In this document: positions 5,432-29,178 of the stretch, in pieces
Position numbering within the stretch: position 1 is the stretch's first letter
How the letters are laid out: each line of letters starts with the position of its first letter
Virus record (IMG/VR): IMGVR_UViG_3300002835_000135
Direction: 5' to 3' (one strand)
From: an uncultured virus (IMG/VR IMGVR_UViG_3300002835_000135)
Taxonomy: Duplodnaviria; Heunggongvirae; Uroviricota; Caudoviricetes
DNA: 64,000 nt
Made by a program: the position numbers and the translations under genes
The notes under the pieces: model-generated
The model's input: only the letters and a program-made list of their open reading frames with translations
Told to the model about the DNA's origin: nothing
Databases searched by the model: none

Positions 5432-6829
5432 TTATAATATAGCTCTAGTACCGATTAAGAAATTACTTAAGAATGGTGTTCCTGAAGCGGTATTTCCACT
5501 TAGTTTATAGTTAAAACTAAATCCAAACCTCTTACTAATTTTATAATCAAAGGAAGCACCTACCAAAAAGCCCATATGTCTATTTACCGTAGTTGTTCCA
5601 GCAACACTATTCCAAGATATTGGTGCAAACATCGTAAATAACTGAGGTGAAATGGTTAATTTTTTACTATACTGATATGGCTTGGTCCAAAATGCCACAA
5701 CAGAGGTTGACATGTTATAGTCATATGTGGTATCTGTCGATTTCAAAAATAAATTAATCAAACCTAAGTTATAACCAAAAACACCGTGTTTTGGGGTTGG
5801 TTTAATCCACGTATACCCCAATAAATTCATGTAATTACCATTCAAATAAGCAAATGCGCTTGAATACGAATGTATTGCGTTTAATTTGCCTCCATTGAAG
5901 TCCATCTTGGTATATCCACCGCTAACAATAAACGTCTTTAAATCGCTCATAATTACCGTATTTGCAGAATAACTTTTATCGCCACCTAACGATGATTTAG
6001 AAACACCAATAGTTGCTGATTGTAACCATCTACCGTCAGGCGATTCAATTGTTGACAAATCAGATGACAATAACATTGGATTAGTTACCGCCGCTTTTTC
6101 CTTTTTCTTTTCTTCCTTTTTTTCTTCTTTCTTTTCCTCTTTTTTCTCCTCTGATTTACTTTCTTCTTTCTTTTCTTCTTTAGTTTCTGATTTAGCTTCT
6201 TCTTTTTTCTCTTCAGATTTAGTTTCCGATTTTGATTCACTTTTACTTTCCGTCTTTGCTTCGGTTTTAGTTTCTGTTTTACTTTCCGATGATGATGACG
6301 ATGAACTACTAGAAGATGAACTACTAGAGGATGATGATCCACCACTTGTTGCAGGTGGTGTTGATGATGAACTTCCGCTTGATGGTGGTGGTGTCACTGG
6401 CGGTGGGGTTGACGCAGAACTAGCCGCGGCAGAACTTGCGGAACTACTAGCTGCGGAGCTTGCGGAACTACTAGCAGCGGAACTCGCAGCAGAACTAGCG
6501 GCTGAACTAGCAGCGGCGGATGCTGCCGAAGCCGCGGCGTTTGCTACAGCTTGTTGAACAACAGGGTTATTAATAACCGGACAAGTTAATGCTTCATATG
6601 TGGTTTTTGTTGTCAATAACCACGTTTGTACAACACCTGTTTGTACTTCTAATGGTGAAAAGGTTCTAACTTGATTGTAAAAAGACACTGTAGCATAACC
6701 ATTTATCATTGTTGTTGTGGCTATTTTTTTTTCACCACTACATTTATCGATAAATGTTTGACTGTATGTTTGCCCATACGATATTGAGGCAAAACAAAGA
6801 ATAATAAATAAAAAAATAATTTTTTTCAT
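5432..6829 (-). CDS. Secreted protein with Ala/Ser- and Glu/Lys-rich linker and probable C-terminal beta-barrel
   Basis: Signal peptide; low-complexity middle; amphipathic beta-strand C-terminal half. Confidence 0.6.
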   Translation of the reverse strand: MKKIIFLFIILCFASISYGQTYSQTFIDKCSGEKKIATTTMINGYATVSFYNQVRTFSPLEVQTGVVQTWLLTTKTTYEALTCPVINNPVVQQAVANAAASAASAAASSAASSAASSAASSSASSAASSSASSAAASSASTPPPVTPPPSSGSSSSTPPATSGGSSSSSSSSSSSSSSSSSESKTETKTEAKTESKSESKSETKSEEKKEEAKSETKEEKKEESKSEEKKEEKKEEKKEEKKKEKAAVTNPMLLSSDLSTIESPDGRWLQSATIGVSKSSLGGDKSYSANTVIMSDLKTFIVSGGYTKMDFNGGKLNAIHSYSSAFAYLNGNYMNLLGYTWIKPTPKHGVFGYNLGLINLFLKSTDTTYDYNMSTSVVAFWTKPYQYSKKLTISPQLFTMFAPISWNSVAGTTTVNRHMGFLVGASFDYKISKRFGFSFNYKLSGNTASGTPFLSNFLIGTRAIL

Positions 6830-6832
6830 TAA

Positions 6833-7684
6833 TTACTTATTATTAAGACCAATCGCTATTTGAGTGTATTTTCTTATTGGGTCGACGTCAAATTTGATAG
6901 TTAAAAAATTAAAATCTCTAATAACACCAATCTTGAATGTTGTAAAGTTTGTATTCGACTTTGGAAAAGATATTCCACCAATAGCATCTCTACCTTGATA
7001 TCTCAAAATTTCACGCCCAAAACCAATCATACCGTGAATTCCCAATTTGTTAATTCTTTTACCCGCGCCCAAATAAATTGCTGACTCTTTTTTAAAATCA
7101 TTATCACTAATTGGGAAGTCAGCTATAGCAATGTTGCCATATGGGTAATATTTATTTTGATCAATCTCATATGTCATCACATAATCTAAAATAAAATATC
7201 CCTTTTTACCTCCGACTGCTCCCCAATAAGACACTTGCTTATTATTGGTATGTCCAAAACCAAAAGTGGTATATGGCGATTCCTTTCTAATCGTGTCTCT
7301 TTTACCACTTTCATATATGTGAATTACACTTCTTTGTCTCCACCCTAAATCATCATACCAAATATATGGTAATGGTTGATACCACCCCCAATTACCCCAA
7401 TAATACCCAAATTGATTTTGCCTGTTCCAATTTTGAACACGTATTCTACCACGCGGGTCTGGATTAGGTTGTAATTGTTGTTGTGGTGGATTATTTCTCC
7501 AATTACTCACATCATTTCTTTGTGGGGCTGATTGTTGTGTTTTTGGTGTTTCAACTCTCGGTTGTGGTGTTGATTGTTGCGGTGGATTAGTTCTCCATGT
7601 TGATACCTGTCCGAACATTAAAGTTGGGAATAATAAAACTAAAAATAAAATTGTTTTCATACTGTTTTTTTTAAATTTTTTCAT
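6833..7684 (-). CDS. Secreted protein with Pro/Gln-rich N-region and probable beta-barrel
   Basis: Signal peptide; alternating beta-strand pattern at the C-terminus. Confidence 0.55.
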   Translation of the reverse strand: MKKFKKNSMKTILFLVLLFPTLMFGQVSTWRTNPPQQSTPQPRVETPKTQQSAPQRNDVSNWRNNPPQQQLQPNPDPRGRIRVQNWNRQNQFGYYWGNWGWYQPLPYIWYDDLGWRQRSVIHIYESGKRDTIRKESPYTTFGFGHTNNKQVSYWGAVGGKKGYFILDYVMTYEIDQNKYYPYGNIAIADFPISDNDFKKESAIYLGAGKRINKLGIHGMIGFGREILRYQGRDAIGGISFPKSNTNFTTFKIGVIRDFNFLTIKFDVDPIRKYTQIAIGLNNK

Positions 7685-17535: not shown

Positions 17536-18071
17536 TTTTTAGTTGTTAATAATTTATTAATTAATGTTTCACAAGTTTTCTTAGTGGCGGAAGAAAGTGC
17601 TTGTTGATTTATTTTACCACTACCCTCATCAGTTATTAAAGTTGATGTTGATATTTCGGTGCTAGATTCCTCTGCGACCGCTTCTTTTATTTTTTTACCA
17701 TTTTTATCACTTAGTGTACCCCTCATAGTTACTAGAGTTTCCTCAACGTCCGAATGGAATACTGAAATGTTTCTTTTTGTTCTGTTTACATCAAAAAACA
17801 AAATTTCAACATTCAAAACATAATCAGCGTTTTCTAACGACTCAACAATCGCAAAATCTTTATCTTGTAAGATTTCTTGGAAAATGTTTTTACACCCAAA
17901 TGCCAAGTTTTTATTAGCCGTTAGTCGACCTATTTTAATTTTGTTCTCAACACTAGCTACATATACATTTTTTTGTTGTGGCGTTCTATTATCCGTAAAC
18001 GGGATTAATAACAAAAAAAGGCACAATAATGGTAGTAACGATACATACAAACTGCCGGAATTATATTTCAT
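17532..18071 (-). CDS. Membrane-anchored/secreted protein, CsgG/LptE-like fold possible
   Basis: N-terminal hydrophobic segment; ADYVLNVEI. Confidence 0.5.
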   Translation of the reverse strand: MKYNSGSLYVSLLPLLCLFLLLIPFTDNRTPQQKNVYVASVENKIKIGRLTANKNLAFGCKNIFQEILQDKDFAIVESLENADYVLNVEILFFDVNRTKRNISVFHSDVEETLVTMRGTLSDKNGKKIKEAVAEESSTEISTSTLITDEGSGKINQQALSSATKKTCETLINKLLTTKK

Positions 18072-18254
18072 ATCAATAAATACTCGGCAAGGCAACTTAG
18101 GTATATATATTGCCGGAAAATTGCCCGAAATATGTTATAATATAATATATGTTTAACACCCCTTATCAGACCTTATTGGGAATACTTTACACATTATTTG
18201 GTTTTTGCTTTACATTTTATAAAAATCGTTTTACCTTTAATAAAAAATAGAGAT

Positions 18255-19037
18255 ATGTCAAATTTTAAACATCTTAGTGACTTAGAAGTCCAGCAAATTA
18301 CATTTGACTGGAGACATCGCGGATTTACTGTTTTAGAGTTATTAACCGAGAATGAATGTGATGAAATAAACGAGGAATTGAATAGGTTAAGAAACGAAAG
18401 AACCGGTACCGAAGCGCCAGACGGTAAAACATGGGGCGAGTGGGACCCATTTGCTTATCCGCATAAACTTTCAGATAAATTGGCGAAACTATTTGCGCAC
18501 CCTAAAGTATTGGAAGCCGTGGAGTTTTTAATGGAAGGTGAAATCCAGGGTATGCAAAGTTGGTGTTATTTTAAACCGCCAGGACAATTAGGTAGAGACC
18601 AACATCAAAATGCGTTTTATACAAAATGTGGTCATAACGAAATTATTAACACTGCATTAGCATTAGATAATCATGACCCAGAAAATGGTGCTGTGTGGAA
18701 CTATGAGGGTTCTCATCGTTTACCAGTATTACCAATTGAGGTGGATGAGGAACGAACAAAAACAAACCCAGCGTTTTGGAGTAATGAAAGAGGTAAACCA
18801 TGTGTAATGCCTGAAGGACACGACTTCCGTAAGGTGGAAGGTTACTTAAGAAAAGGTCAAGTGGTGTTACTGCACTCGCATTGTGTTCACGGATCAGAAG
18901 CAAATAACTCAAATAGAATGAGAAGAAACTTCTTAGGTGGTTATCTTAAAAAAGGCGCTAATTTCTCAAAAGGTGGACATATGAAACGCGAACCAATTGA
19001 TATGTATGAATTAAGAAAAAACCACTGGGGTGAGTAA
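18255..19037 (+). CDS. Phytanoyl-CoA dioxygenase (PhyH)-family 2OG-Fe(II) oxygenase
   Basis: FKPPG, HQN, ALD...ENG...GSH, HGSEAN.S..RR; start moved to MSNF. Confidence 0.85.
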   Translation: MSNFKHLSDLEVQQITFDWRHRGFTVLELLTENECDEINEELNRLRNERTGTEAPDGKTWGEWDPFAYPHKLSDKLAKLFAHPKVLEAVEFLMEGEIQGMQSWCYFKPPGQLGRDQHQNAFYTKCGHNEIINTALALDNHDPENGAVWNYEGSHRLPVLPIEVDEERTKTNPAFWSNERGKPCVMPEGHDFRKVEGYLRKGQVVLLHSHCVHGSEANNSNRMRRNFLGGYLKKGANFSKGGHMKREPIDMYELRKNHWGE

Positions 19038-19074
19038 TTTTTAAACTTTTCTTTATTTTACGAATACTTATTAG

Positions 19075-19082
19075 TATCTTTG
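19075..19082 (+). promoter_or_regulatory. Bacteroidota-type -7 promoter element upstream of leader 1
   Basis: TATCTTTG matches TAnnTTTG. Confidence 0.6.
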
Positions 19083-19111
19083 CAAAAAGATTTAAACATT
19101 AAACAAATTCA

Positions 19112-19210
19112 ATGAGACAACAAAAACATACAATGTCGTTTATTATCTGCTCAAAATGGGCGGATGAGCGCGCTATGTCCATATGTCTCGATGATACTGA
19201 TGTCGGTTAA
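19112..19210 (+). CDS. Leader peptide 1 (32 aa), putative attenuator of tRNA array 1
   Basis: MRQQKHTMSFIICSKWADERAMSICLDDTDVG; codons match array-1 tRNAs; followed by a terminator. Confidence 0.8.
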   Translation: MRQQKHTMSFIICSKWADERAMSICLDDTDVG

Positions 19211-19235
19211 ATAAAAGTTTAACTTAAAATATTAG

Positions 19236-19266
19236 AAAACCTCGGGACAAAATCTCGGGGTTTTTT
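19236..19266 (+). terminator. Intrinsic terminator between leader 1 and tRNA array 1
   Basis: AAAACCTCGGGA-caaaa-TCTCGGGGTTTT + T run. Confidence 0.85.
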
Positions 19267-19349
19267 GTTTTATATGAGTTTTGGCTGGTTATAATTTTTT
19301 ATACTCAGCCAAAAGTGCCAAAAAATTAACGATTTGGCACAATATAAAT

Positions 19350-19419
19350 GGGCCGGATGTCAATGGCAGACCACCTGATTTGCAATCAGAGTGAAAGGGT
19401 TCGATTCCCTACGTGTCCA
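19350..19419 (+). tRNA. tRNA-Ala(UGC), acceptor stem imperfect
   Basis: Loop TT-TGC-AA, G3:U70, A73, GTTCGA; two acceptor mismatches. Confidence 0.65.
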
Positions 19420-19426
19420 CAGAAAT

Positions 19427-19500
19427 TGAAATATAGCTCAGTTGGTTAGAGCGTCATCCTGATACGGTGAATGTCGATGGTTCGAGTCCATCTATTTCAA
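19427..19500 (+). tRNA. tRNA-Ile(GAU)
   Basis: Cloverleaf, CT-GAT-AC. Confidence 0.9.
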
Positions 19501-19505
19501 CATTT

Positions 19506-19578
19506 GGAACTTTTGTATAGCTGGTGCGTACGTCGGACTGAAAATCCGAAGGAACAAGTTCGATTCTTGTAGGTTCCA
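19506..19578 (+). tRNA. tRNA-Phe(GAA)
   Basis: Cloverleaf, CT-GAA-AA. Confidence 0.9.
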
Positions 19579-19584
19579 CATAAT

Positions 19585-19658
19585 GACCTCGTAGCTCAGT
19601 TGGTTAGAGCACATCACTTTTAATGATGGGGCCGACAGTTCGAATCTGTCCGGGGTCA
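19585..19658 (+). tRNA. tRNA-Lys(UUU)
   Basis: Cloverleaf, CT-TTT-AA. Confidence 0.92.
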
Positions 19659-19663
19659 CACAC

Positions 19664-19734
19664 GCGGGTATGGTGCAACGGCAGCATACGGGTCTCCAAA
19701 ACCCTCGATGGGAGTTCGAATCTCTCTACCCGTG
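19664..19734 (+). tRNA. tRNA-Trp(CCA)
   Basis: Cloverleaf, CT-CCA-AA, G73. Confidence 0.9.
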
Positions 19735-19741
19735 CAAATAA

Positions 19742-19813
19742 GGTCTCTTGGTGTAACGGATAGCACGAAACACTACGGATGTTTTGGTAAAGGTTCGAAT
19801 CCTTTAGAGACCT
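19742..19813 (+). tRNA. tRNA-Arg(ACG)
   Basis: Cloverleaf, CT-ACG-GA. Confidence 0.9.
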
Positions 19814-19868
19814 CGATGTTCACAAAAGTTGCTTGTTCACGGTTCGTGAACAGAGAACAAAAGTGAAC

Positions 19869-19960
19869 AACACCGCCAAAGTCGGAAGTAAAACACCGCC
19901 AAAGTCGGAAGTAAAACACCGCCAAAGTCGGAAGTAAAACACCGCCAAAGTCGGAAGTAA
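19869..19960. repeat. Perfect tandem repeat, 4 x 23 bp
   Basis: AACACCGCCAAAGTCGGAAGTAA x4, no spacers. Confidence 0.95.
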
Positions 19961-19963
19961 TTA

Positions 19964-20034
19964 GTCAGGTTGGCCGAGTGGCTAGGCAGAGGTCTGCAAA
20001 ACCTCGTACATTGGTTCGAATCCAATACCTGACT
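19964..20034 (+). tRNA. tRNA-Cys(GCA)
   Basis: Cloverleaf, CT-GCA-AA, U73. Confidence 0.92.
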
Positions 20035-20036
20035 CT

Positions 20037-20113
20037 GTGATTGATGCTCGTATGGTAGAGCACTAGCTTGTGGCGCTAGAATAAAGCGAGTTCGAATCTC
20101 GTCAATCACCCCA
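20037..20113 (+). tRNA. tRNA-His(GUG)
   Basis: TT-GTG-GC loop, C73, encoded CCA. Confidence 0.88.
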
Positions 20114-20116
20114 TAT

Positions 20117-20184
20117 TGCGGGGAGAATGGTTTCCCACCGGTCTCATAAGCCGAGTGTTCCAGGTTCGACTCCTGGCCCCGCAA
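20117..20184 (+). tRNA. tRNA-Met(CAU) with shortened D arm
   Basis: TGCGGGG/CCCCGCA acceptor, CT-CAT-AA, GTTCGA. Confidence 0.75.
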
Positions 20185-20195
20185 CAAAAATGTAT

Positions 20196-20226
20196 TTTGA
20201 ATTTTAAAAAATTTAATTTATATTTG
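20196..20226 (+). promoter_or_regulatory. Bacteroidota-type promoter inside array 1
   Basis: TTTG-N19-TATATTTG. Confidence 0.6.
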
Positions 20227-20227
20227 T

Positions 20228-20416
20228 ATAACAGGTGACGACGGTGGTGAAACCCCACTGTCTATAAATCTCAACACCCGCCTTGATTCGCGGTATTATA
20301 GCGGTGAGAGTAGAGTTACTACAAGTCGGGAATAATTACCCCAATGACGAAAGTGTAGCCACCAACGTAGGGATATGTTGGTTATGATGTACGAATGGGT
20401 GCGAAAAACTTGTTAT
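20228..20416 (+). ncRNA. Unassigned structured RNA (~190 nt)
   Basis: Closing stem ATAACAGGT/ACTTGTTAT with several internal hairpins; no ORF. Confidence 0.5.
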
Positions 20417-20422
20417 TTTTTT

Positions 20423-20499
20423 TTGATACTAACTCAACGAGGACTTTGTCAACCAGAGCTATGACTCGGATGGTGCAACTTAAGGTGAGTTAGAATCAA
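20423..20499 (+). ncRNA. Unassigned structured RNA (~75 nt)
   Basis: Closing stem TTGATACTAACTCA/TGAGTTAGAATCAA. Confidence 0.4.
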
Positions 20500-20503
20500 T
20501 TTT

Positions 20504-20577
20504 GGATTGTTGGTGAAGTTGGTTATCATGCTACCCTGTCACGGTAGAGTTCACGGGTTCGAGTCCCGTACAGTCCG
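20504..20577 (+). tRNA. tRNA-Asp(GUC)
   Basis: Cloverleaf, CT-GTC-AC, G73. Confidence 0.92.
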
Positions 20578-20580
20578 CAA

Positions 20581-20671
20581 ATCATATCTTCAGGTACCCA
20601 TACAGCGGTGAGATGGGCTAAGTTAGATACAATTCCTCGGAGCTGGGAGTAGAATGTCTGTTTGATGTGAT
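20581..20671 (+). ncRNA. Unassigned structured RNA (~90 nt)
   Basis: Closing stem ATCATATC/GATGTGAT with two internal hairpins. Confidence 0.4.
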
Positions 20672-20676
20672 AATTT

Positions 20677-20762
20677 GGAGAGATGGCAGAGTTGGTCTAT
20701 CGCGTCGGTCTTGAAAACCGAAGTTCTGAAAGGAACCGTGGGTTCGAATCCTACTCTCTCCG
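20677..20762 (+). tRNA. tRNA-Ser(UGA)
   Basis: Long variable arm, CT-TGA-AA, G73. Confidence 0.93.
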
Positions 20763-20963
20763 CACGATTCGTTTAGTCGTCGAATAATATGCCCAATATG
20801 ATGAGAAACGGTTTGACAACCGTATGGGAACGTACATAGACGTATAGGAATAACGTCTGGGTTTATCAGCCCGACCTCGTGAGGACGAAATGATTATTCC
20901 TAACCTGACATTTGTCGGGGACAACTAAGGCACCTGTAAGCTGGATAAATTATGGTGTCACTT

Positions 20964-21035
20964 GCTCAGTTCGACTAAGGGTTAGGTCACCTCCCTTTCA
21001 CGGAGGTAATACGGGTTCGAATCCCGTACTGAGTA
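20964..21035 (+). tRNA. tRNA-Glu(UUC)
   Basis: Cloverleaf, CT-TTC-AC. Confidence 0.9.
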
Positions 21036-21113
21036 CAATCTTTTTATATATTAAACTATTGATTCCCAATATTTTATTTTGTATTTTTACCATATTATTA
21101 ATATTTATAATAT

Positions 21114-21416
21114 ATGATAGATAAAATCACATTATCGTTAATGTTATTTTTTAACACATTAACATCCTCTATCGACCCAAGTTTTTCCGACGAAAGAAAG
21201 ACCTACAATCAAATTAAAAAAGAGATTAAAGCTCTTGAAAGAAAAATTGAATGGGTTGAAGCAACAGATGATAATTACGCTAGCAGGGCCGTCAAAACCA
21301 AAGAAATCACGGACGAGATTACCAAATTGAATGGTAAAATTGTAAAGATTGAGAAGGTTGTTATTTTAAAAGATAAGTGGGCTAAGGAAGATTCCTTAAC
21401 CAAATCAAAAAAATGA
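21114..21416 (+). CDS. Hypothetical coiled-coil protein with N-terminal hydrophobic segment
   Basis: 100-aa ORF after TATTTATA. Confidence 0.6.
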   Translation: MIDKITLSLMLFFNTLTSSIDPSFSDERKTYNQIKKEIKALERKIEWVEATDDNYASRAVKTKEITDEITKLNGKIVKIEKVVILKDKWAKEDSLTKSKK

Positions 21417-21862
21417 AAAAAATTATTTTAATGCTAACGTTACTTTTGGGAGTGGAAGTCGTGGCAAATGGACAAGAGTGGTTTATAACCGCCACTCGAA
21501 AAGGTGGTCCATCAGATGGTTATATAACAGGTGCTTTTATGAAGAAAGGTTGGGGATTCTATGCTGGTCTTCCATATGGCGAATTGGGTGGTCAAAACGG
21601 TGGAATTGTAATTCCCCCTGGTGTCAACACCAAAACAGGAAACGTATCCGATAACATGAAGTTTGGTGTTCTTAGACAAGTAAAAGAGGACAAAGCGATT
21701 GTTGGGTTTGGATTACAACCAACACTTAATGGAAATAAACCTAATTTTCTTATAATGTACAATCCACTTAGACCAAGTAGTGTTATAAATCTATGGACAA
21801 TTGGAAATATAATTGGTGATGATTTCACATTAGGGCTTGGATTATCATATAAAGTGAAATAA
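21413..21862 (+). CDS. Secreted small beta-barrel-like protein
   Basis: Signal peptide; GLGLSYKVK end. Confidence 0.55.
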   Translation: MKKIILMLTLLLGVEVVANGQEWFITATRKGGPSDGYITGAFMKKGWGFYAGLPYGELGGQNGGIVIPPGVNTKTGNVSDNMKFGVLRQVKEDKAIVGFGLQPTLNGNKPNFLIMYNPLRPSSVINLWTIGNIIGDDFTLGLGLSYKVK

Positions 21863-21887
21863 TTTTATTAACTATTGATAATTTTAA

Positions 21888-21895
21888 TATATTTG
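21888..21895 (+). promoter_or_regulatory. Bacteroidota-type -7 promoter element upstream of leader 2
   Basis: TATATTTG. Confidence 0.6.
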
Positions 21896-21913
21896 CATAT
21901 ACTTATTAAAACG

Positions 21914-22021
21914 ATGAAGAATATAAATAACATATCAACGAGTACGAGACCCCTTAATAATGGTAATGGGTATGGTGTGCAACCGTTATGTTACATATGT
22001 TCGGATATCAATAAAGGATAA
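21914..22021 (+). CDS. Leader peptide 2 (35 aa), putative attenuator of tRNA array 2
   Basis: MKNINNISTSTRPLNNGNGYGVQPLCYICSDINKG; codons match array-2 tRNAs; followed by a terminator. Confidence 0.8.
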   Translation: MKNINNISTSTRPLNNGNGYGVQPLCYICSDINKG

Positions 22022-22044
22022 ATAAATTTTTTAAACTAATATCG

Positions 22045-22077
22045 AGACCCGAACAACTAAAAATGTTCGGGTTTTTT
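22045..22077 (+). terminator. Intrinsic terminator between leader 2 and tRNA array 2
   Basis: AGACCCGAACA-actaaaaa-TGTTCGGGTTT + T run. Confidence 0.88.
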
Positions 22078-22097
22078 GTTTTACAATTTATTATCTT

Positions 22098-22123
22098 TAT
22101 ATTTGAAAAGGAGTTCTTTGACA
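22098..22123 (+). promoter_or_regulatory. Possible -7 promoter element plus boxA-like antitermination site
   Basis: TATATTTG then GTTCTTTGACA. Confidence 0.5.
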
Positions 22124-22138
22124 TATTGAGAAAGAAAT

Positions 22139-22223
22139 GCTCGAGTGGTGTAATGGTAGCCACGAGGGACTTAAAATCCCTTGGACAGAAACGTCCGTGC
22201 CGGTTCGAGTCCGGCCTCGAGTA
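22139..22223 (+). tRNA. tRNA-Leu(UAA)
   Basis: Long variable arm, CT-TAA-AA. Confidence 0.93.
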
Positions 22224-22224
22224 C

Positions 22225-22334
22225 AATGTAATGACCTAGTAATAGGTGACGGAACAGACGCTATGTATGAAATGGAAACTTTTGAAGCGCGTACAAAGGT
22301 GCTGATTAGATACAAACCGTACAGACATTACATT
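22225..22334 (+). ncRNA. Unassigned structured RNA (~110 nt)
   Basis: Closing stem AATGTAATG/CATTACATT; internal ACCTA-gtaa-TAGGT hairpin. Confidence 0.45.
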
Positions 22335-22339
22335 AAATT

Positions 22340-22413
22340 GGTTCCATAGCTCAATTGGATAGAGCACAATCCTTCTAAGATTGGGGTTTCAGGTTCGATC
22401 CCTGATGGGATCA
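22340..22413 (+). tRNA. tRNA-Arg(UCU)
   Basis: Cloverleaf, CT-TCT-AA. Confidence 0.92.
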
Positions 22414-22421
22414 CAATAAAT

Positions 22422-22496
22422 AGGGTAATGGACTAATGGCTAAGTCACTTGCTTTGGGAGCAAGGCATCATGGAGGTTCGAGTCCTCTTTACCCTA
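22422..22496 (+). tRNA. tRNA-Pro(UGG)
   Basis: Cloverleaf, TT-TGG-GA. Confidence 0.9.
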
Positions 22497-22501
22497 CAAT
22501 C

Positions 22502-22574
22502 GCTTTCTTAGCTCAGTTGGTAGAGCACATCACTGTTAATGATGGAGTCGGGGGATCGTGACCCTCAGGGAGCG
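22502..22574 (+). tRNA. tRNA-Asn(GUU)
   Basis: Cloverleaf, CT-GTT-AA; variant T loop GATCG. Confidence 0.85.
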
Positions 22575-22581
22575 CAATAAT

Positions 22582-22662
22582 GGCCGAGTGGTGTAATGGG
22601 AGCCACGCTAGTTTTAGGCACTAGTGTCGAAAGACGTGAGAGTTCGAATCTCTCCTTGGTCA
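22582..22662 (+). tRNA. tRNA-Leu(UAG)
   Basis: Variable arm, TT-TAG-GC. Confidence 0.92.
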
Positions 22663-22667
22663 CATAT

Positions 22668-22748
22668 TGGGATATCGCATAGTGGCAATTGCGGCTGACT
22701 GTAAATCAGCTCTCTTTGAGTTCGGCGGTTCGAGTCCGTCTATCCCAA
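22668..22748 (+). tRNA. tRNA-Tyr(GUA)
   Basis: Variable arm, CT-GTA-AA. Confidence 0.92.
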
Positions 22749-22872
22749 CATAAAAATATGAATAGAGAACAATATTTACAAGAAACTTTTCCAACTAAAG
22801 ACGGAAAAACTTACATCCAATCATTAGATGAATTTAATTCAAAAAAAGAGGAAGATGTAAAAGAAGATACAT

Positions 22873-22986
22873 GCCGGAGTGGCGGAATAAACAACGATGC
22901 TGACGAGTAATGTTGAGACGTGTCGCATTCTAGAAGATGAGTACTCCGAAAGGACCTCGTGGAGGTAATCAATCCTTTCTCCGGCA
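22873..22986 (+). ncRNA. Enlarged tRNA-Leu-like RNA with D-loop hairpin insert and broken anticodon arm
   Basis: GCCGGAG/CTCCGGC-A acceptor, TGGCGGAA..AGACG D arm, variable hairpin, non-canonical T loop. Confidence 0.6.
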
Positions 22987-23041
22987 CCTATTAATCGTCA
23001 ATATAGACGATAACAGATTTTATCGTTAGATTAAACGATAT

Positions 23042-23115
23042 GGACTTATAGCTCAGATGGTTAGAGCAGGTCGCTCATAACGACAAGGTCACAGGTTCGA
23101 ATCCTGTTTGGTCCA
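23042..23115 (+). tRNA. tRNA-Ile2(CAU), lysidine type reading AUA
   Basis: CT-CAT-AA; GGACTTA-TAGCTCAG...GGTCC-A body resembles bacterial Ile2 rather than Met. Confidence 0.75.
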
Positions 23116-23120
23116 CACAT

Positions 23121-23193
23121 AGAAGATTAGCTCAGTTGGGAGAGCGCTTGTTTTACATGCAAGATGTCACTGGTTCGATTCCGGTATCTTCTA
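23121..23193 (+). tRNA. tRNA-Val(UAC)
   Basis: Cloverleaf, TT-TAC-AT. Confidence 0.9.
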
Positions 23194-23199
23194 CAATAA

Positions 23200-23271
23200 G
23201 CTCCTAAAGCATTGCAGGCGATGCGCATGACTTGTAATCATGATAACTTGGTTCGATTCCGAGTGGGAGCT
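23200..23271 (+). tRNA. tRNA-Thr(UGU)
   Basis: Cloverleaf, CT-TGT-AA. Confidence 0.88.
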
Positions 23272-23325
23272 CATGGGACTCCGATGGAAGTCCGCAAGAA
23301 GAATAGATGTTTTTCATCCATCAAA

Positions 23326-23398
23326 GCGAGTATAGTATAATGGCTTATTATGCCTTCCTTCCAAGTAGGATATGTCAGTTCGATTCTGACTACTCGCT
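23326..23398 (+). tRNA. tRNA-Gly(UCC)
   Basis: Cloverleaf, CT-TCC-AA, U73. Confidence 0.9.
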
Positions 23399-23461
23399 CA
23401 ATCATCAAAGAGACCGCTAAATCGAGTTAGTGAAAATCTACATTCTCAATGATGATTAAAT

Positions 23462-23532
23462 TGTCCTTTGGTGTAACGGTAGCACAACTGTTTTTGGTGC
23501 AGTTTGTTTAGGTTCGAATCCTAGAGGGACAA
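23462..23532 (+). tRNA. tRNA-Gln(UUG)
   Basis: U1:A72, TT-TTG-GT. Confidence 0.9.
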
Positions 23533-23536
23533 CAAT

Positions 23537-23622
23537 GGAGAGTTACCCAAGTTGGTGAAGGGGGCAGTTTGCTAAACTGTTAGGTCGTTTGCGGCGCAAG
23601 GGTTCGAGTCCCTTACTCTCCG
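23537..23622 (+). tRNA. tRNA-Ser(GCU)
   Basis: Long variable arm, TT-GCT-AA, G73. Confidence 0.92.
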
Positions 23623-23637
23623 CAGTAAAAGTACCCT

Positions 23638-24237
23638 ATGAAACACACAAAAAATGAAATGATTTTTCTTAATCATGTAAAGACATCATGTAAAATCTAT
23701 GGAATTAAATGTCTATTAAAAAAAACAAAAACAGTTAAAATGGACGACAACGTTAAATGTTCTGGTTATTTTGATGAAACTGGAAAAGTATTAGTTGTTG
23801 CAATGAATCGACCAGATTGGGTTGAAATTTTAGCGCATGAATATTCGCATTTAACTCAATGGGTTGAAAAAATACCAGTATGGTTAGACGCGGAAAACTC
23901 ATTAGGTAAGGTATGGGAATGGTTAGATGGTAAAAACGTTAGAAACATTGATACGCACATAGCGGTAGCGCGTGATTTAGAATTAGATAACGAAAAAAGG
24001 TCCGTAAAAGTCATTAAGAAATTTAATTTAAAAGTGGATCTTGAAAATTACGTGAGAAAAGCGAACGCGTATGTAATGTTTTACAATTGGCTTAGAAAAA
24101 CCAGAAAATGGTCAAGACCCAATAATAGCCCATATAAAAATAAAAATGTTAAATCTGCGATGTCGACAAAATTCAATATGAATTATAAAACGTTATCGCC
24201 TAGATTAGAAAAAATATTTAGAGAAGAAGACATCTAA
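23638..24237 (+). CDS. HExxH zinc metallopeptidase-like protein
   Basis: LAHEYSH, downstream ELDNE. Confidence 0.65.
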   Translation: MKHTKNEMIFLNHVKTSCKIYGIKCLLKKTKTVKMDDNVKCSGYFDETGKVLVVAMNRPDWVEILAHEYSHLTQWVEKIPVWLDAENSLGKVWEWLDGKNVRNIDTHIAVARDLELDNEKRSVKVIKKFNLKVDLENYVRKANAYVMFYNWLRKTRKWSRPNNSPYKNKNVKSAMSTKFNMNYKTLSPRLEKIFREEDI

Positions 24238-24243
24238 ATAAAT

Positions 24244-24414
24244 TGTCAGGTGTTGAAATTTGATTGGTACGCGTATCAATCTAGGCAGACAAGCGCTCCT
24301 GTCTCGAGCGTGGTGACAAAGAAATAGGTAATTAATATGGGGTAGACCACCAAGCCGGCCGGCAGATGTTAATTACTGAATCTCACCGTGGTGGTTCGAG
24401 TCCATCCCTGACAG
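24244..24414 (+). ncRNA. Giant (171 nt) tRNA-like RNA with expanded D loop and variable region
   Basis: TGTCAGG/CCTGACA-G acceptor; CGCTC-ctgtctc-GAGCG arm; GGTGG-TTCGAGT-CCATC T arm. Confidence 0.7.
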
Positions 24415-24444
24415 CTAAACAATAATTATAATAAATGAAATGAA

Positions 24445-24906
24445 ATGAAAAAATTTAGAACTCTCTATGGAACTCCAATTCCAGATGCTATTGAATACAT
24501 CAGAGAGTACATCTCAACAAGAGAGAATGTGGAAATTCTTATCGGTTCTGACTCACAATGTTACGGAAATAAAAAAACAATCTTTGGTGTTGTTGTTGCA
24601 TTATATACTAAAGGTAAAGGCGCTCACGTGTTATGTACGCGTGAAACATTACCTATGGAACATAACACACCTTCGCGTTTACTAGGTGAAGTTTGGAAAT
24701 CTTTAGAGATGGCTGAATTTTTAAAAGAAAATGGTTTACCTAAACCAACCTGGATTGATATAGACCTTAATCCAGACCCAAAATACAAATCAAACTCAGT
24801 TCTTAGACAAGCTGTTGGTATGGTTGAAGGTATGGGTTACAAGGTAAGGTATAAGCACGTTGGGGCATTAATGACTTATGCTGCAAATCATTTAGTTAGG
24901 TTATAG
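24445..24906 (+). CDS. RNase H-like YkuK (DUF458) family protein
   Basis: IGSDSQ, RL..EV.KS, IDIDLN, YAANH. Confidence 0.8.
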   Translation: MKKFRTLYGTPIPDAIEYIREYISTRENVEILIGSDSQCYGNKKTIFGVVVALYTKGKGAHVLCTRETLPMEHNTPSRLLGEVWKSLEMAEFLKENGLPKPTWIDIDLNPDPKYKSNSVLRQAVGMVEGMGYKVRYKHVGALMTYAANHLVRL

Positions 24907-26011: not shown

Positions 26012-26042
26012 AAAAACACTTGATTTTTTGACAAACATTACT

Positions 26043-26075
26043 TATCTTTGCAAAAGAAATAAATTAGTTCTTTGA
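26043..26075 (+). promoter_or_regulatory. -7 promoter element and boxA-like site before the large ncRNA
   Basis: TATCTTTG (26043-50), GTTCTTTGA (26067-75). Confidence 0.55.
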
Positions 26076-26085
26076 TTTAAAAATA

Positions 26086-26885
26086 TTGGCCGCCTATGGT
26101 CAACAAAATAAACCATGAAAGTGGGATAAAGTGGTCTGGTTTGGTTAAATCAGATTGCGGTTTCAGCAATGGAACTTGAGTAGGCAAACAGAATATCATT
26201 GAACCTTAATTACTGAGGGTAACACTGTAGGGAAAGTGGTTCGATGATCAAGCAATCCGAGTTGTTTGGTTGAGGTGGGAACACCAATAAGAATAATCTG
26301 TAGAGTTATTACAAGAAGTAGGATTTCCAATCTTACAATTGTGTGATTCAATATGATGGGAATCTTAAAACCGAAAGGTATGGTGAAGTACGAGTGGTGT
26401 CGTTATCATCCTTAATTAAACTCTACCAAGGGTTTAGTTTTGAAGGGGTCCAAAAATATGGTAGCAGGGATGTTACAGAGAGTAGTTTAGTATCGGGTCG
26501 TTCAAAAGATGACTTGGCTGGCAGATGGGCCGCTACTTTCCAAATTCGGAACCAACTCAATTGTTAATTCAGGTTTAACAACTTAAAAAACAAGGAAAAG
26601 TGCCCATCAGTCGTTGGAGACAGGTGACTACACAGTCGAGAGGGGTTCTCGGCCATGAAGGGTCCCAAGCCCAACATGATTTTTAAGAAAGTTCTCTAAT
26701 CCCGCAAGGATGCGTTGGGGTGGCAACCTCGAAGAGTAATGAGTATTAAAAGAGTATTCGACGACTAAAGGATTGGTTAATCTAATTGACCGTCACTGAT
26801 TGGTACTACTCAAAAGGTAGTGGATAAGAGAAGAAAAGATAATGTCTCTAAAGTCAATCGCTAAATGGTGTAATCTCAGCCCTTT
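26086..26885 (+). ncRNA. Large structured ncRNA, probably GOLLD
   Basis: ~800 nt without a credible ORF, many GNRA-capped hairpins, tRNA-array context; 3' end ...GTAATCTCAG recalled from GOLLD RNAs. Confidence 0.7.
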
Positions 26886-28765: not shown

Positions 28766-29176
28766 GGGGGTGCCTGGCATTGATTTCAGGTATCGGGAAT
28801 AAATGGCACGTAGTCAGAATTCATCTATGACTTAAATCTACGGTGAAACAATTCAAACGGCAACGTTTACAACAACATGGAAATTGCAGGTTTACTTGCA
28901 ACTTCCAAAGTAGCTGCCTAACCAAGTTAGGTACTACAATCGGGTCGACGAGCATGTAACCTAGGAACAGAAGCTCTTAAGGTGTGATTTCTACCCAAAA
29001 AGAAATAAACGGTCTTGTTCAGAGGGCTACCGTAACAAAAGTGAACTCGACACAGTTGTTGGTAACGATGTCAAAATAGGAACCAAATATTTGTCAGTTG
29101 TGAACTAATTGAATAAACGTGTAGTCATTTATTGTTGAGCAGGAAAGACACGGGTTCGAGTCCCGTCACCTCCACC
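28766..29176 (+). ncRNA. ssrA: tmRNA; predicted tag (A)GNVYNNMEIAGLLATSKVAA
   Basis: GGGGGTG/CACCTCC-A acceptor with G3:U, T arm GGGTTCGAGTCCC, internal ORF 28859-28921 ending AA-stop. Confidence 0.92.
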
Positions 29177-29178
29177 TT

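What the first reader, a model, noticed from the sequence alone, without database searches (positions are those of the whole stretch)
19075..23622. Codon-matched leader-peptide attenuators gating two phage tRNA arrays: a candidate sensor of tRNA depletion
Seen: both arrays share the layout TAnnTTTG promoter -> 32/35-codon ORF -> intrinsic terminator -> 12 tRNAs. Each leader's central block contains codons for all 12 tRNA specificities of its own array: 18/19 codons in leader 1 and 22/23 in leader 2 fall in own-array codon families. The split holds for isoacceptors: leader 1 uses Ser UCN, Arg CGC, Ile AUU/AUC (array 1 has Ser-UGA, Arg-ACG, Ile-GAU); leader 2 uses Ser AGU, Arg AGA, Ile AUA, Leu CUU/UUA (array 2 has Ser-GCU, Arg-UCU, Ile2-CAU, Leu-UAG/UAA). 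In both, the 3' part of the leader (starting in a shared CATATGT) is complementary to the 5' arm of the terminator. Established: trp/his-type attenuation couples ribosome stalling to antitermination, and host defences such as PrrC and PARIS AriB cleave tRNAs, which phage tRNAs can offset. Inference: a stall at any sensor codon leaves the antiterminator strand free, so the array holding the missing tRNA is transcribed, whereas fast translation allows termination. That would be a 12-input OR gate for tRNA supply. I know of no description of this for phage tRNA arrays, but I could not search the literature.
Basis: partly seen in the sequence, partly recalled or inferred. Interest (0 to 1): 0.97.

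Follow-up and report, generated by a model that had tools for sequence, protein, structure and literature searches.

The report
Leader-peptide attenuators gating phage tRNA arrays
In this large lake phage each of two blocks of tRNA genes sits behind a tiny reading frame spelled in the codons that block decodes and wired to a switchable transcription stop, so the phage probably makes a tRNA set when ribosomes read its codons slowly, a control known for amino-acid operons that I could not find described for tRNA genes.

Summary
Two ORFs (19112-19210, 21914-22021) each follow a TAnnTTTG box and precede the only two + strand terminators of the region. Each ORF has codons for all 12 tRNAs of its own array.

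In 97 metagenomic loci the flanks of leader 1 are kept, while the central block is re-coded together with the array (SFIICSKWADER before Ala/Ile/Phe/Lys/Arg/Cys arrays, SPMNQQNWNEQP before Pro/Asn/Gln arrays). No swap of arrays among 20,000 reached the observed match.

In both leaders a short stretch near the ORF's 3' end copies the terminator's 3' arm and can pair with its 5' arm. An unrelated cultured phage, Cellulophaga phage phi4:1, has the same design twice.

Best reading (0.65): ribosome-stalling attenuators of tRNA genes. No experiment supports it yet.

Caveats:
- One CAU tRNA's Ile2 identity is unproven.
- Candidate promoters lie downstream of terminator 2 and inside array 1.
- Tracking is imperfect after recent tRNA deletions.
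- The host-defence rationale is speculative.

This scan noted the same kind of element, and this same leader family, on other DNA before. Seven literature searches found no published account.

The parts
19075..19082 (+). -7 box TATCTTTG of the leader-1 promoter (Bacteroidota type TAnnTTTG)
   Evidence: Read. ATCTTTG is 90-100% conserved in 45 distinct relatives.
19112..19210 (+). Leader 1 ORF, 32 codons plus stop
   Evidence: There are 42 distinct homologous ORFs in 97 loci, all open and 31 or 32 codons long, with start and stop in the same place.
19115..19120 (+). Region 1 of leader 1 (GAGACA), pairs with region 2
   Evidence: Minimum-energy fold, z = -5.95. Helix 2 is 95.1% paired.
19136..19174 (+). 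Sensor block of leader 1, codons 9-21 (SFIICSKWADERA): 13 of 13 codons in array-1 families
   Evidence: P = 8.5e-5 from codon usage. This is the part re-coded between array classes in relatives.
19185..19191 (+). Region 2 of leader 1 (GUCUCGA, ORF nt 74-80): copies the terminator's 3' arm and can pair with region 1 or region 3
   Evidence: The core helix with region 3 is 100% paired in 45 sequences.
19197..19235 (+). Middle hairpin that holds the stop codon in its 5' arm and is enclosed by the antiterminator
   Evidence: Its two helices are 98.7% and 91.9% paired.
19233..19275 (+). Intrinsic terminator 1 with U tract; region 3 (UCGGGACA) is 19242-19249
   Evidence: 99.4% paired in 45 sequences.
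19350..21036 (+). tRNA array 1: Ala-UGC, Ile-GAU, Phe, Lys, Trp, Arg-ACG, Cys, His, CAU, Asp, Ser-UGA, Glu
20196..20226 (+). Candidate internal promoter TTTG-N19-TATATTTG ahead of a 270-nt structured element and tRNAs Asp, Ser and Glu
   Evidence: This is one of 3 such sites in the window, which is no more than chance gives (mean 4.0).
21888..21895 (+). -7 box TATATTTG of the leader-2 promoter
   Evidence: ATTT is kept in 19 distinct relatives.
21914..22021 (+). Leader 2 ORF, 35 codons plus stop
   Evidence: About 18 distinct homologues, all open; the tail and the stop position vary.
21920..21988 (+). Sensor block of leader 2, codons 3-25: 22 of 23 codons in array-2 families if ATA is counted
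   Evidence: P = 5e-6.
21998..22004 (+). Region 2 of leader 2 (UGUUCGG, ORF nt 85-91)
   Evidence: Invariant in 19 sequences and 99.2% paired with region 3. Its pairing with region 1 (21919-21925) shows compensatory changes.
22044..22083 (+). Intrinsic terminator 2; region 3 (CCGAACA) is 22049-22055
   Evidence: 97.8% paired. Homologous to the plain gene terminator of relatives that lack leader 2.
22075..22121 (+). Candidate promoter of array 2, downstream of terminator 2: TTTG (inside the U tract), N19, TATATTTG, then GTTCTTTGA
   Evidence: Present in relatives with and without leader 2.
22139..23623 (+). tRNA array 2: Leu-UAA, Arg-UCU, Pro, Asn, Leu-UAG, Tyr, CAU, Val, Thr, Gly, Gln, Ser-GCU

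Best explanation
Each unit is a ribosome-mediated transcription attenuator placed in front of tRNA genes. A Bacteroidota-type promoter starts a short transcript. Its small ORF holds one or two codons for every tRNA specificity encoded downstream.

Three states are proposed:
- No ribosome, or a ribosome that runs to the stop codon: the start of the ORF (region 1) pairs with a 7-nt stretch near the ORF's 3' end (region 2). The terminator (regions 3 and 4) forms and transcription ends before the array.
- A ribosome waiting at any codon of the central block: it melts the long leader hairpin but stops short of region 2. Region 2 then pairs with the terminator's 5' arm as soon as that arm is made. 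In leader 1 this helix encloses the hairpin that carries the stop codon.
- In that case the polymerase runs on into the array.

The unit would thus be an OR gate over about 12 tRNA supplies that raises production of the very tRNAs that are short.

Shown: the anatomy, the codon match, its co-variation with array content, the alternative pairings and their conservation. Inferred: translation, stalling, and read-through as the regulated step. More speculative: what is sensed is tRNA loss during infection (host shut-off, or tRNA-cleaving defences) and not amino-acid starvation. More tRNA would not cure amino-acid starvation.
For: 1. Codon match in the window. Each leader covers 12 of 12 own tRNAs. 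Own-array codons are 22 of 31 and 26 of 34 (Fisher p = 1.7e-4). Blocks are 13 of 13 (P = 8.5e-5) and 22 of 23 (P = 5e-6). Isoacceptors split as claimed: leader 1 uses CGC, although CGN is only 20% of this phage's Arg codons, and leader 2 uses AGA.

2. Co-variation. 97 loci give 42 distinct leader-1 ORFs.
- Arrays starting Ala Ile Phe Lys Trp Arg-ACG Cys His have the block SFIICSKWADER.
- Arrays starting Pro Asn Trp (Leu-UAG) Gln have S[PFT][MS]NQ[QLP]NWNEQP.
- The flanks are the same.
- Over 23 distinct block/array pairs with a complete first array the mean match is 0.883. In 20,000 swaps of arrays none reached it (swap mean 0.640, highest 0.816). Within-class swaps gave p = 0.026 and 0.023.
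- Array tRNAs are represented in the leader's variable part in 225 of 226 cases (class A) and 85 of 94 (class B).
- CTN in the block against the Leu-UAG tRNA: 6, 0, 1, 3 for both, codon only, tRNA only, neither.

3. Leader 2 is present in 15 of 15 distinct class-A upstream regions of tRNA-Leu-UAA and in 0 of 6 class-B ones. In class B, Pro, Asn, Gln, Thr and Leu tRNAs sit behind leader 1 instead.

4. Switch.
- Folds have z = -5.95 and -4.43.
- Antiterminator folds are -18.8 and -12.1 kcal/mol before the 3' arm exists. The terminator states are -24.5 and -21.2.
- The region 2-3 helix is 100% (45 sequences) and 99.2% (19 sequences) paired, against at most 57% when slid.
- At one region 2-3 position the window has G:C, L123 has G.U and L151/L191 have A:U.
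- The leader-2 hairpin has 13 pairs with changes on both sides, against 6.3 +/- 1.6 in shuffles (0 of 500 shuffles reached it).

5. No promoter room. 49 of 49 distinct leader-1 loci have a tRNA within 330 nt of the ATG. The gap from the U tract to the first tRNA is 5-14 nt in 41 of 46 measured.

6. Geometry. The blocks end 10-13 nt before region 2.

7. Independent replicate in Cellulophaga phage phi4:1.
- MKIQRLHLQELEQPIISGGTGV plus a terminator precedes Pro Glu Gln His Leu-UAG Leu-UAA Arg-ACG: 11 of 11 contiguous codons, P about 2e-7.
- VQLTKTGITVIDKTKGARAYLGDTVIG plus a terminator precedes Ala Lys Ile Gly CAU Asp Thr Val Arg-UCU CAU Tyr: 17 of 17, P about 4e-5.
- Both have 3' parts complementary to their terminator's 5' arm (my reading).
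Against: - There is no experimental evidence of translation, stalling or regulated read-through.
- The antiterminator helices are almost invariant, so they show only one-sided, pair-keeping changes. Shuffle controls are not exceeded (284 of 500 and 500 of 500 shuffles reach the observed values).
- A conserved promoter-like site and the GTTCTTTGA motif lie between terminator 2 and array 2. A promoter-like site also lies inside array 1. Part of each array may therefore be made without read-through.
- Tracking is imperfect:
  - Loci that lost the Ala/Ile/Phe/Lys tRNAs (L161/L190, L184/L189, L177, L197) mostly keep those codons.
  - L197 keeps leader 2 although ARAGORN finds only 3 tRNAs behind it.
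  - Class-B leaders carry Phe codons without a Phe tRNA (6 of 10) and often His.
  - Many class-A blocks carry a Thr codon although Thr-UGU is in array 2 (19 of 20).
- Each specificity has only one or two codons, which gives low sensitivity by the standard of his or thr leaders.
- The stop codon lies 17 nt past region 2, so a ribosome at the stop does not cover region 2 as it does in trpL.
- The block also forms an apical hairpin in both classes, so some codon choices may be structural.
- The identities of the CAU tRNAs are unresolved.
Confidence: 0.65

Rival explanations
1. The ORF and its codon match are functional, but the regulated step is not termination. Ribosome speed on the leader would set processing, stability or folding of the precursor (for example access of RNase P or RNase E to the first tRNAs). 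The hairpin with its U tract would be a leaky, constitutive stop or a 5' stabiliser.
For: Arrays start 5-14 nt after the U tract in 41 of 46 measured loci, so tRNAs must be made by read-through even in the ground state. The terminator state is thermodynamically favoured by 5.7-9 kcal/mol. Covariation does not single out the antiterminator.
Against: In two unrelated terminators, and in two more in phi4:1, a stretch of the ORF copies the 3' arm. That is what an antiterminator needs and a processing signal does not. Region 2 is invariant, as expected of a strand with two partners.
Confidence: 0.13
2. The leaders are separate small genes (a peptide or a small RNA) with their own terminators. The arrays are transcribed from other promoters, and the codon match has another cause, such as shared descent.
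For: Promoter-like sites lie downstream of terminator 2 and inside array 1. In relatives terminator 2 is simply the terminator of the preceding protein gene. The C-terminal MSICLDDTDVG is well conserved. One other short ORF in the window (22937-23029) also covers all 12 array-2 families.
Against: The block, not the tail, is replaced wholesale together with the array, which does not fit a conserved peptide. The conserved tail coincides with region 2 and the middle hairpin. Leader-1-type arrays have no room for a promoter. Both arrays' tRNAs would be available to any mRNA, so general codon adaptation cannot explain an array-specific split. The design recurs in phi4:1 with no sequence likeness.
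Confidence: 0.1
3. The leader RNA binds tRNAs directly, without a ribosome, using the block's codons as specifiers in the manner of a T-box. Uncharged or intact tRNA would stabilise one conformation.
For: The block is displayed at the apex of a long hairpin in both classes. The element controls translation-related genes through a terminator/antiterminator choice, as T-boxes do.
Against: No T-box or other Rfam cis-regulatory family matches at E up to 1. The reading frame, start and stop are kept in 42 distinct variants, and length changes are whole codons. Twelve specifiers in a row have no precedent. No element to read a tRNA 3' end is evident.
Confidence: 0.05
4. Chance: two AT-rich short ORFs happen to match.
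For: The block limits were chosen after seeing the data. Coverage of all 12 array-2 families has P of about 1% per ORF, and one unrelated ORF reaches it.
Against: Joint probabilities are far below the number of ORFs looked at. The swap test gave 0 of 20,000. Class B and phi4:1 are independent replicates.
Confidence: 0.02

Closest known systems
Multivalent leader-peptide attenuators of enterobacterial amino-acid operons (ilvGMEDA leader: Ile/Leu/Val; thr leader: Thr/Ile; also trpL, hisL, leuL, pheL). Recalled textbook knowledge. I saw only the abstract starts of PMC1183508 and PMC3082878 in search listings.
   Same: Promoter, short ORF with regulatory codons, 1:2 / 2:3 / 3:4 alternative pairings, an intrinsic terminator, and the logic that a slow ribosome gives read-through.
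   Different: The regulated genes are tRNAs, not enzymes. There are about 12 input specificities with one or two codons each, instead of runs of one to three amino acids. Region 1 lies at the ORF's start and the sensor codons sit in the hairpin's apex. The stop codon lies 17 nt beyond region 2, inside a further hairpin. The element is encoded by a phage, and its content is re-coded when the array changes.
pheM leader of the pheST operon: a leader-peptide attenuator controlling a gene of the translation apparatus (recalled, no paper read).
   Same: Attenuation by a leader peptide applied to a component of tRNA charging.
   Different: It has a single amino-acid input and its product is a synthetase, not the tRNAs themselves.
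Cysteine-rich short ORFs of mycobacteria that act as Cys-responsive attenuators and are engaged when the VapC4 toxin cuts tRNA-Cys. I saw the abstract start of bioRxiv 10.1101/834739. Barth et al. 2021 PNAS I saw only as a title in the reference list of PMC10264068.
   Same: A short ORF senses loss of a tRNA species through ribosome stalling and switches downstream genes.
   Different: Single specificity, cellular stress genes as the output, and no feedback on tRNA supply.
T-box riboswitches (Rfam RF00230)
   Same: They sense tRNA status and choose between terminator and antiterminator ahead of translation-related genes.
   Different: They bind tRNA directly, read one specifier codon and need no ribosome. 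There is no Rfam match here.
Phage tRNA arrays as replacements for host tRNAs lost to defence nucleases or host shut-off. I saw the abstract start and reference list of PMC10264068, eLife 2023. Yang et al. 2021 I saw only as a reference title. The PARIS work is recalled.
   Same: It supplies the biological reason why a phage might want tRNAs on demand.
   Different: In the passages I searched for promoter, terminator and transcription terms, that paper says nothing on how arrays are regulated.

Membership tests
Leader-peptide (ribosome-mediated) transcription attenuator | Short ORF with a start codon in the 5' leader, kept open in relatives | tested here: met
   42 distinct leader-1 ORFs in 97 loci are all open, with 31 or 32 codons, an invariant ATG and a fixed stop. 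Length differences are whole codons. About 18 distinct leader-2 ORFs are open.
Leader-peptide (ribosome-mediated) transcription attenuator | Regulatory codons cognate to what the operon supplies | tested here: met
   12 of 12 own specificities in both leaders. Swap test 0 of 20,000. 225 of 226 and 85 of 94 array tRNAs are represented in the leader. The codons here match tRNA genes, not biosynthetic enzymes.
Leader-peptide (ribosome-mediated) transcription attenuator | Intrinsic terminator between the ORF and the regulated genes | tested here: met
   (the only two on the + strand in 18000-24500). 99.4% and 97.8% paired in relatives.
Leader-peptide (ribosome-mediated) transcription attenuator | Mutually exclusive antiterminator (2:3) and terminator (3:4), and an anti-antiterminator (1:2) | tested here: met
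   2:3 is 100% and 99.2% paired. 1:2 is supported by compensatory changes in leader 2. 2:3 shows no change on both sides.
Leader-peptide (ribosome-mediated) transcription attenuator | Geometry: a ribosome stalled at the control codons frees region 2, and a ribosome at the stop prevents 2:3 | tested here: inconclusive
   The blocks end 10-13 nt before region 2, which fits. The stop lies 17 nt past region 2, so the ribosome would sit between regions 2 and 3 instead of on region 2. That differs from trpL.
Leader-peptide (ribosome-mediated) transcription attenuator | Leader is translated; read-through rises on stalling; transcription and translation are coupled | not testable with these tools
   The RNA-library contigs laid on the region were uninformative.
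T-box riboswitch | Stem I with a specifier loop and the conserved T-box sequence in the antiterminator | tested here: not met
   No match to RF00230, or to any cis-regulatory family apart from chance-level hits, at E up to 1 in 18900-23900.

The most novel reading that the evidence does not exclude
Phages of Bacteroidota carry an inducible counter-measure to tRNA loss. Each tRNA array is headed by a 'barcode' ORF that lists the array's own anticodon specificities and turns the array on when any one of those tRNAs becomes limiting, for instance after attack by a host anticodon nuclease or after host shut-off. The barcode is rewritten whenever tRNA genes move between arrays. The design arose more than once: in this lake-phage family and in Cellulophaga phage phi4:1.
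Probability: 0.3. Interest if true: 0.95.

Novelty: new variant of a known kind. Interest (0 to 1): 0.88.

Why it matters
Why phages carry tRNAs, and when they use them, has been argued for decades. If arrays are switched on by slow decoding of their own codons, phage tRNAs are a regulated response to tRNA shortage and not a constant codon supplement.

It would also extend leader-peptide attenuation in two ways. The regulated genes would be tRNAs themselves, and the sensor would read about a dozen inputs at once.

The leaders give a readable prediction of which tRNAs each array is meant to replace. Cellulophaga phage phi4:1 has a cultured host, so the idea can be tested at the bench.

For annotation, short ORFs inside phage tRNA regions should be read as candidate leaders. 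An example is gp075 of phi4:1, now annotated as a hypothetical protein.

Tried and rejected
- Named phage collection: 1144 records matched 18900-23900, but only over single tRNAs. None covered 80% of the query, so there is no close named relative.
- The window's own assembly is not held.
- Loci around relatives of the upstream PhyH-like protein: 72 of 80 have no tRNA in the fetched DNA. This route gave few informative relatives, so I used DNA patterns instead. 16 of 42 and 5 of 7 exact-pattern matches were true leaders; the rest were chance.
- Rfam on 38 of the 97 leader-1 loci. The output lists only the best 150 rows, so weak tRNAs could not be read from it. I used only the totals: 167 and 331 tRNA hits, against 165 and 317 from ARAGORN. 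I then ran ARAGORN with lowered thresholds and kept only + strand hits inside arrays with anticodons already seen in this family.
- Public RNA runs. There were five holders with small shares (0.05-0.08), all kept as contigs. Most pieces are conserved tRNA fragments of other organisms. They say nothing on starts, ends or read-through, and absence of cover over leader 1 in X1 is not a finding.
- Identity of the CAU tRNAs. BLAST to annotated E. coli genomes was ambiguous for 23042-23116 and gave no match for 20117-20187. Clustering shows three types, but I cannot say which is elongator Met and which is Ile2.
- Covariation as proof of the antiterminator: the helix is too conserved.
- The third ORF covering all array-2 families (22937-23029) has no terminator behind it and fits chance, so I did not count it as a leader.
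- gp076 of phi4:1 looks like a mis-called tRNA-like stretch, not a leader (my reading).
- One within-class permutation sorted leaders by length. That placed L137, a Pro/Asn-type leader with one extra codon, in class A. One search sorts by peptide motif instead.

Full report
**What is there**

The window is 33% G+C and carries Bacteroidota-type TAnnTTTG boxes. Between 19075 and 23623 it holds 24 tRNA genes in two groups of 12.
- ARAGORN finds 22 of them.
- Rfam adds 19350-19419 (29.7 bits) and 20117-20184 (33.4 bits), both just above the tRNA threshold of 29.
- With lowered thresholds ARAGORN folds the first as tRNA-Ala(UGC) with a G3.U70 pair. It folds the second as a CAU tRNA with a reduced D arm.

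Each group is preceded by the same series of features:
- a TAnnTTTG box (19075-19082 and 21888-21895);
- a short ORF (19112-19210 with 32 codons; 21914-22021 with 35 codons);
- a G+C-rich hairpin with a U tract (19233-19267 and 22044-22075).

These two hairpins are the only + strand terminator-like sites in 18000-24500.

**The codon match is real**

I assigned every sense codon to the tRNA family that reads it.
- Leader 1 has 22 of 31 codons in array-1 families. Leader 2 has 26 of 34 in array-2 families (Fisher p = 1.7e-4).
- Each leader covers all 12 of its own specificities, but only 7 and 5 of the other array's.

Against chance:
- A random ORF drawn from this phage's codon usage (45 long ORFs, 14,518 codons) covers all 12 own families with P = 3.6e-4 (leader 1) and 1.0e-2 (leader 2).
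- The blocks score 13 of 13 (8.5e-5) and 22 of 23 (5e-6).
- Of 111 ATG ORFs of 28-38 codons in the window, only leader 1 covers all array-1 families.
- Leader 2 and one other ORF (22937-23029) cover all array-2 families, which is about what chance predicts.

The split holds for isoacceptors. Leader 1's block uses CGC although CGN is only 20% of Arg codons here, and it uses UCN for Ser. Leader 2 uses AGA, AGU, CUU and UUA.

One weak point is the CAU tRNAs. Leaving ATG and ATA out gives p = 6.6e-4. Swapping the two CAU identities gives 6.3e-3.

**Relatives: the block is re-coded with the array**

No named phage is close. Relatives of the upstream PhyH-like protein are common, but 72 of 80 fetched loci hold no tRNA. 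The arrays are therefore an insert in this lineage.

Patterns taken from the conserved leader flanks found 97 loci with a leader-1 homologue. These give 42 distinct ORFs, all open and 31 or 32 codons long. They fall into two classes with the same flanks (ATGAGACAA at the 5' end, ATGTCCATATGTCTCGATGATACTGATGTNGGTTAA at the 3' end) and different central blocks.

| | Block | Array behind leader 1 | Leader 2 |
|---|---|---|---|
| Class A (includes the window) | SFIICSKWADER | Ala Ile Phe Lys Trp Arg-ACG Cys His CAU Asp Ser-UGA Glu | present, before array 2 |
| Class B | S[PFT][MS]NQ[QLP]NWNEQP | Pro Asn Trp (Leu-UAG) Gln (CAU) Thr Asp Ser-UGA Glu | absent |

The residues special to class A (F, I, C, K, A, R) are exactly the tRNAs special to its array. 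The same is true of class B (P, N, Q). Residues common to both classes (S, W, E, M, and D in some leaders) correspond to shared tRNAs.

Leader 2 is present in 15 of 15 distinct class-A upstream regions of tRNA-Leu-UAA and in 0 of 6 class-B ones. In class A, Pro, Asn, Gln, Thr and Leu-UAG sit in array 2, and leader 2 carries their codons.

Quantitative tests:
- Over 23 distinct block/array pairs with a complete first array, the mean match is 0.883.
- None of 20,000 random re-assignments of arrays reached it (swap mean 0.640, highest 0.816).
- Within-class re-assignments gave p = 0.026 and 0.023. That run sorted one Pro/Asn-type leader, L137, into class A by its length.
- Array tRNAs have a codon in the leader's variable part in 225 of 226 (class A) and 85 of 94 (class B) cases. 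These cells are not independent, so I give the counts and no probability.

Small-scale examples:
- CTN in the block goes with a Leu-UAG tRNA (6 with both, 0 codon only, 1 tRNA only, 3 neither).
- The only class-B block with Cys (L152) has the only class-B Cys tRNA.
- L188, which has Thr-UGU in array 1, has Thr in block 1.

**Results against tight tracking**

- Loci that lost the first tRNAs (L161/L190, L184/L189, L177, L197) mostly keep the F, I, K and A codons. Their matches are 7-8 of 13.
- L197 keeps a typical leader 2 although only three tRNAs are found behind it.
- 6 of 10 class-B leaders have a Phe codon without a Phe tRNA.
- 19 of 20 class-A leaders have a Thr codon although Thr-UGU sits in array 2.

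I read these as lag after recent deletions, plus structural constraint on some positions. They do show that the match is not absolute.

**The switch**

Both leader transcripts fold far better than shuffles (z = -5.95 and -4.43). Each forms three elements: a long hairpin in which the ORF's start pairs with a stretch near its 3' end, a middle hairpin, and the terminator.

That 3' stretch (region 2) is GUCUCGA at ORF nt 74-80 in leader 1 and UGUUCGG at nt 85-91 in leader 2. It repeats the 3' arm of its own terminator, so it can pair with the 5' arm. The two terminators differ in sequence, and each leader matches its own.

When the 3' arm is left out, the 2:3 helix is the minimum-energy fold.
- Leader 1: -18.8 kcal/mol, enclosing the hairpin that holds the stop codon.
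- Leader 2: -12.1 kcal/mol.
- With the 3' arm present, the terminator states are -24.5 and -21.2.

Conservation in relatives:
- The 2:3 core is paired in 100% of cells in 45 distinct leader-1 sequences and 99.2% in 19 distinct leader-2 sequences. Slid controls reach at most 57%.
- It is nearly invariant, so changes are one-sided and the shuffle controls are not exceeded.
- The best series is at one position: G:C in the window, G.U in L123, A:U in L151/L191. The terminator's own partner changes in step.
- The 1:2 hairpin of leader 2 does show covariation. It has 13 pairs with changes on both sides against 6.3 +/- 1.6 in shuffles (0 of 500 reached it), including UA/UG/CG at columns 58:137.
- For leader 1 the figure is 7 against 4.2 +/- 1.2 (13 of 500 shuffles reached it).

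The blocks end 10-13 nt before region 2. That is about the distance a stalled ribosome protects.

**Where transcripts can start**

In 49 of 49 distinct leader-1 loci a tRNA begins within 330 nt of the ATG. The gap from the U tract to the first tRNA is 5-14 nt in 41 of 46 measured. The window has a 75-nt spacer with two hairpins and no TAnnTTTG. The first tRNAs of these arrays can therefore only be made by transcription through the terminator.

Array 2 is different. A TTTG-N19-TATATTTG site lies at 22075-22105, with its TTTG inside the U tract, followed by GTTCTTTGA at 22113-22121. The site is conserved in all relatives, including those without leader 2. The same TAnnTTTG-plus-GTTCTTTGA pair stands ahead of the GOLLD RNA region.

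A further promoter-like site at 20196-20226 precedes a structured 270-nt element and tRNAs Asp, Ser and Glu. Three such sites in the window is no more than chance gives (mean 4.0). Their weight comes from position and, for the array-2 site, from conservation.

In relatives, terminator 2 is simply the terminator of the preceding protein gene. Leader 2, with a region 2 fitted to that terminator, was added upstream of it in the lineage whose array 2 grew from 3 to 12-13 tRNAs.

**An independent replicate in a cultured phage**

Cellulophaga phage phi4:1 (NC_021788.1) shares only tRNA-level likeness with the window. In its tRNA region a 37-nt promoter stretch occurs twice, each time followed by a short ORF, a terminator and an array.
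- MKIQRLHLQELEQPIISGGTGV precedes Pro, Glu, Gln, His, Leu-UAG, Leu-UAA and Arg-ACG. Eleven contiguous codons are all in-array, with CGU, UUA and CUA matching the isoacceptors (P about 2e-7).
- VQLTKTGITVIDKTKGARAYLGDTVIG lies inside the annotated hypothetical gp075. It precedes Ala, Lys, Ile, Gly, CAU, Asp, Thr, Val, Arg-UCU, CAU and Tyr. Seventeen contiguous codons are all in-array, with AGA for Arg-UCU (P about 4e-5).

Both transcripts fold well (z = -4.89 and -3.49). In both, a stretch near the ORF's end (GGGAGG; CUAGGGG) is complementary to the terminator's 5' arm. That last point is my reading.

**Interpretation**

The simplest account of all this is leader-peptide attenuation applied to tRNA genes. 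I give it 0.65.

Because each specificity has only one or two codons, the device should respond to a collapse of a tRNA species more than to mild limitation. More tRNA also does not help when the amino acid itself is missing. Both points make tRNA loss during infection a better candidate signal than starvation, but that is inference.

Rivals:
- control of processing or stability rather than termination (0.13);
- separate small genes with arrays driven by other promoters (0.10);
- direct RNA-tRNA sensing (0.05);
- chance (0.02).

**What is known**

Seven full-text searches returned no paper that describes a leader peptide or attenuator in front of tRNA genes or phage tRNA arrays. The pair 'tRNA array' and 'leader peptide' returned 0 papers.

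In PMC10264068 I looked for promoter, terminator and transcription terms and found none in the main text apart from reference titles. I read no supplements. Subscription journals are largely outside the library.

Earlier notes of this scan describe the same kind of element in other phages, and this same leader family on another genome. They are not independent evidence. One of them speaks of matched mutations in the antiterminator, whereas my counts show only one-sided changes there.

Noticed in passing
window 26478-26882 (+): GOLLD RNA (RF02032, 318 bits), also present in 9 of the 38 related loci scanned. A TATCTTTG box plus GTTCTTTGA stands about 400 nt upstream, at 26036-26075.
   Followed up: partly
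window 28766-29177 (+): Phage-encoded tmRNA (RF00023, 83.9 bits against a threshold of 47), missed by ARAGORN. A ribosome-rescue RNA beside 24 tRNAs and stalling-based leaders is worth a look.
   Followed up: no
window 20230-20503 (+): A conserved, structured element of about 270 nt between the CAU tRNA and tRNA-Asp. It has blastn hits in 84 loci of both array classes. RNAalifold on 24 of 27 distinct copies gives 64 pairs, 12 of them with compensatory changes. There is no Rfam match at E up to 1. Near-identical pieces (20252-20442) occur in contigs of an RNA library. It is a candidate new RNA class tied to phage tRNA arrays.
   Followed up: partly
window 19868-19960 (+): A 24-nt tandem repeat (AACACCGCCAAAGTCGGAAGTAAA, about 4 copies) between tRNA-Arg and tRNA-Cys. 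The closest relatives align over only 100 of this stretch's 149 nt, so they appear to have fewer copies.
   Followed up: no
window 22113, 26067, 38819, 60787 (+): The motif GTTCTTTGA occurs 4 times, all on the + strand (1.08 expected; 3 of 100 shuffles reach 4). It is nearly invariant ahead of tRNA-Leu-UAA in all relatives and also flanks tRNAs in the leaderless relatives L013 and L052. It may be part of a phage promoter or of a 5' processing signal.
   Followed up: partly
window 22937-23029 (+): A 30-codon ORF (MSTPKGPRGGNQSFLRHLLIVNIDDNRFYR) inside array 2 covers all 12 array-2 families but has no terminator behind it. This fits chance. The same gap gives a weak manA-RNA-like hit (22854-22988, 21.9 bits against a threshold of 55.2).
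   Followed up: no
window 20117-20184 and 23042-23116; loci L163, L185, L161, L159: This phage family has three types of CAU tRNA. One is initiator-like with a C1 x A72 mismatch (absent from the window). One has a reduced D arm and a GCGGGG acceptor stem (window 20117). One is an ordinary elongator type (window 23042). Which is Met and which is Ile2 is open.
   Followed up: partly
L013-L015 and L052 (relatives of the upstream protein): These relatives have small tRNA sets (5 and 4) without any leader ORF. The tRNAs are scattered among small genes and an HNH endonuclease gene. Leaders therefore go with the larger arrays, not with tRNAs as such.
   Followed up: no
L218 6996-7097 (Cellulophaga phage phi4:1 gp076): The annotated 33-aa protein overlaps a sequence that looks like a degenerate tRNA-Ser anticodon arm. 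It is probably a mis-called tRNA remnant. ARAGORN also reports an implausible permuted tmRNA at 6798-7459.
   Followed up: no
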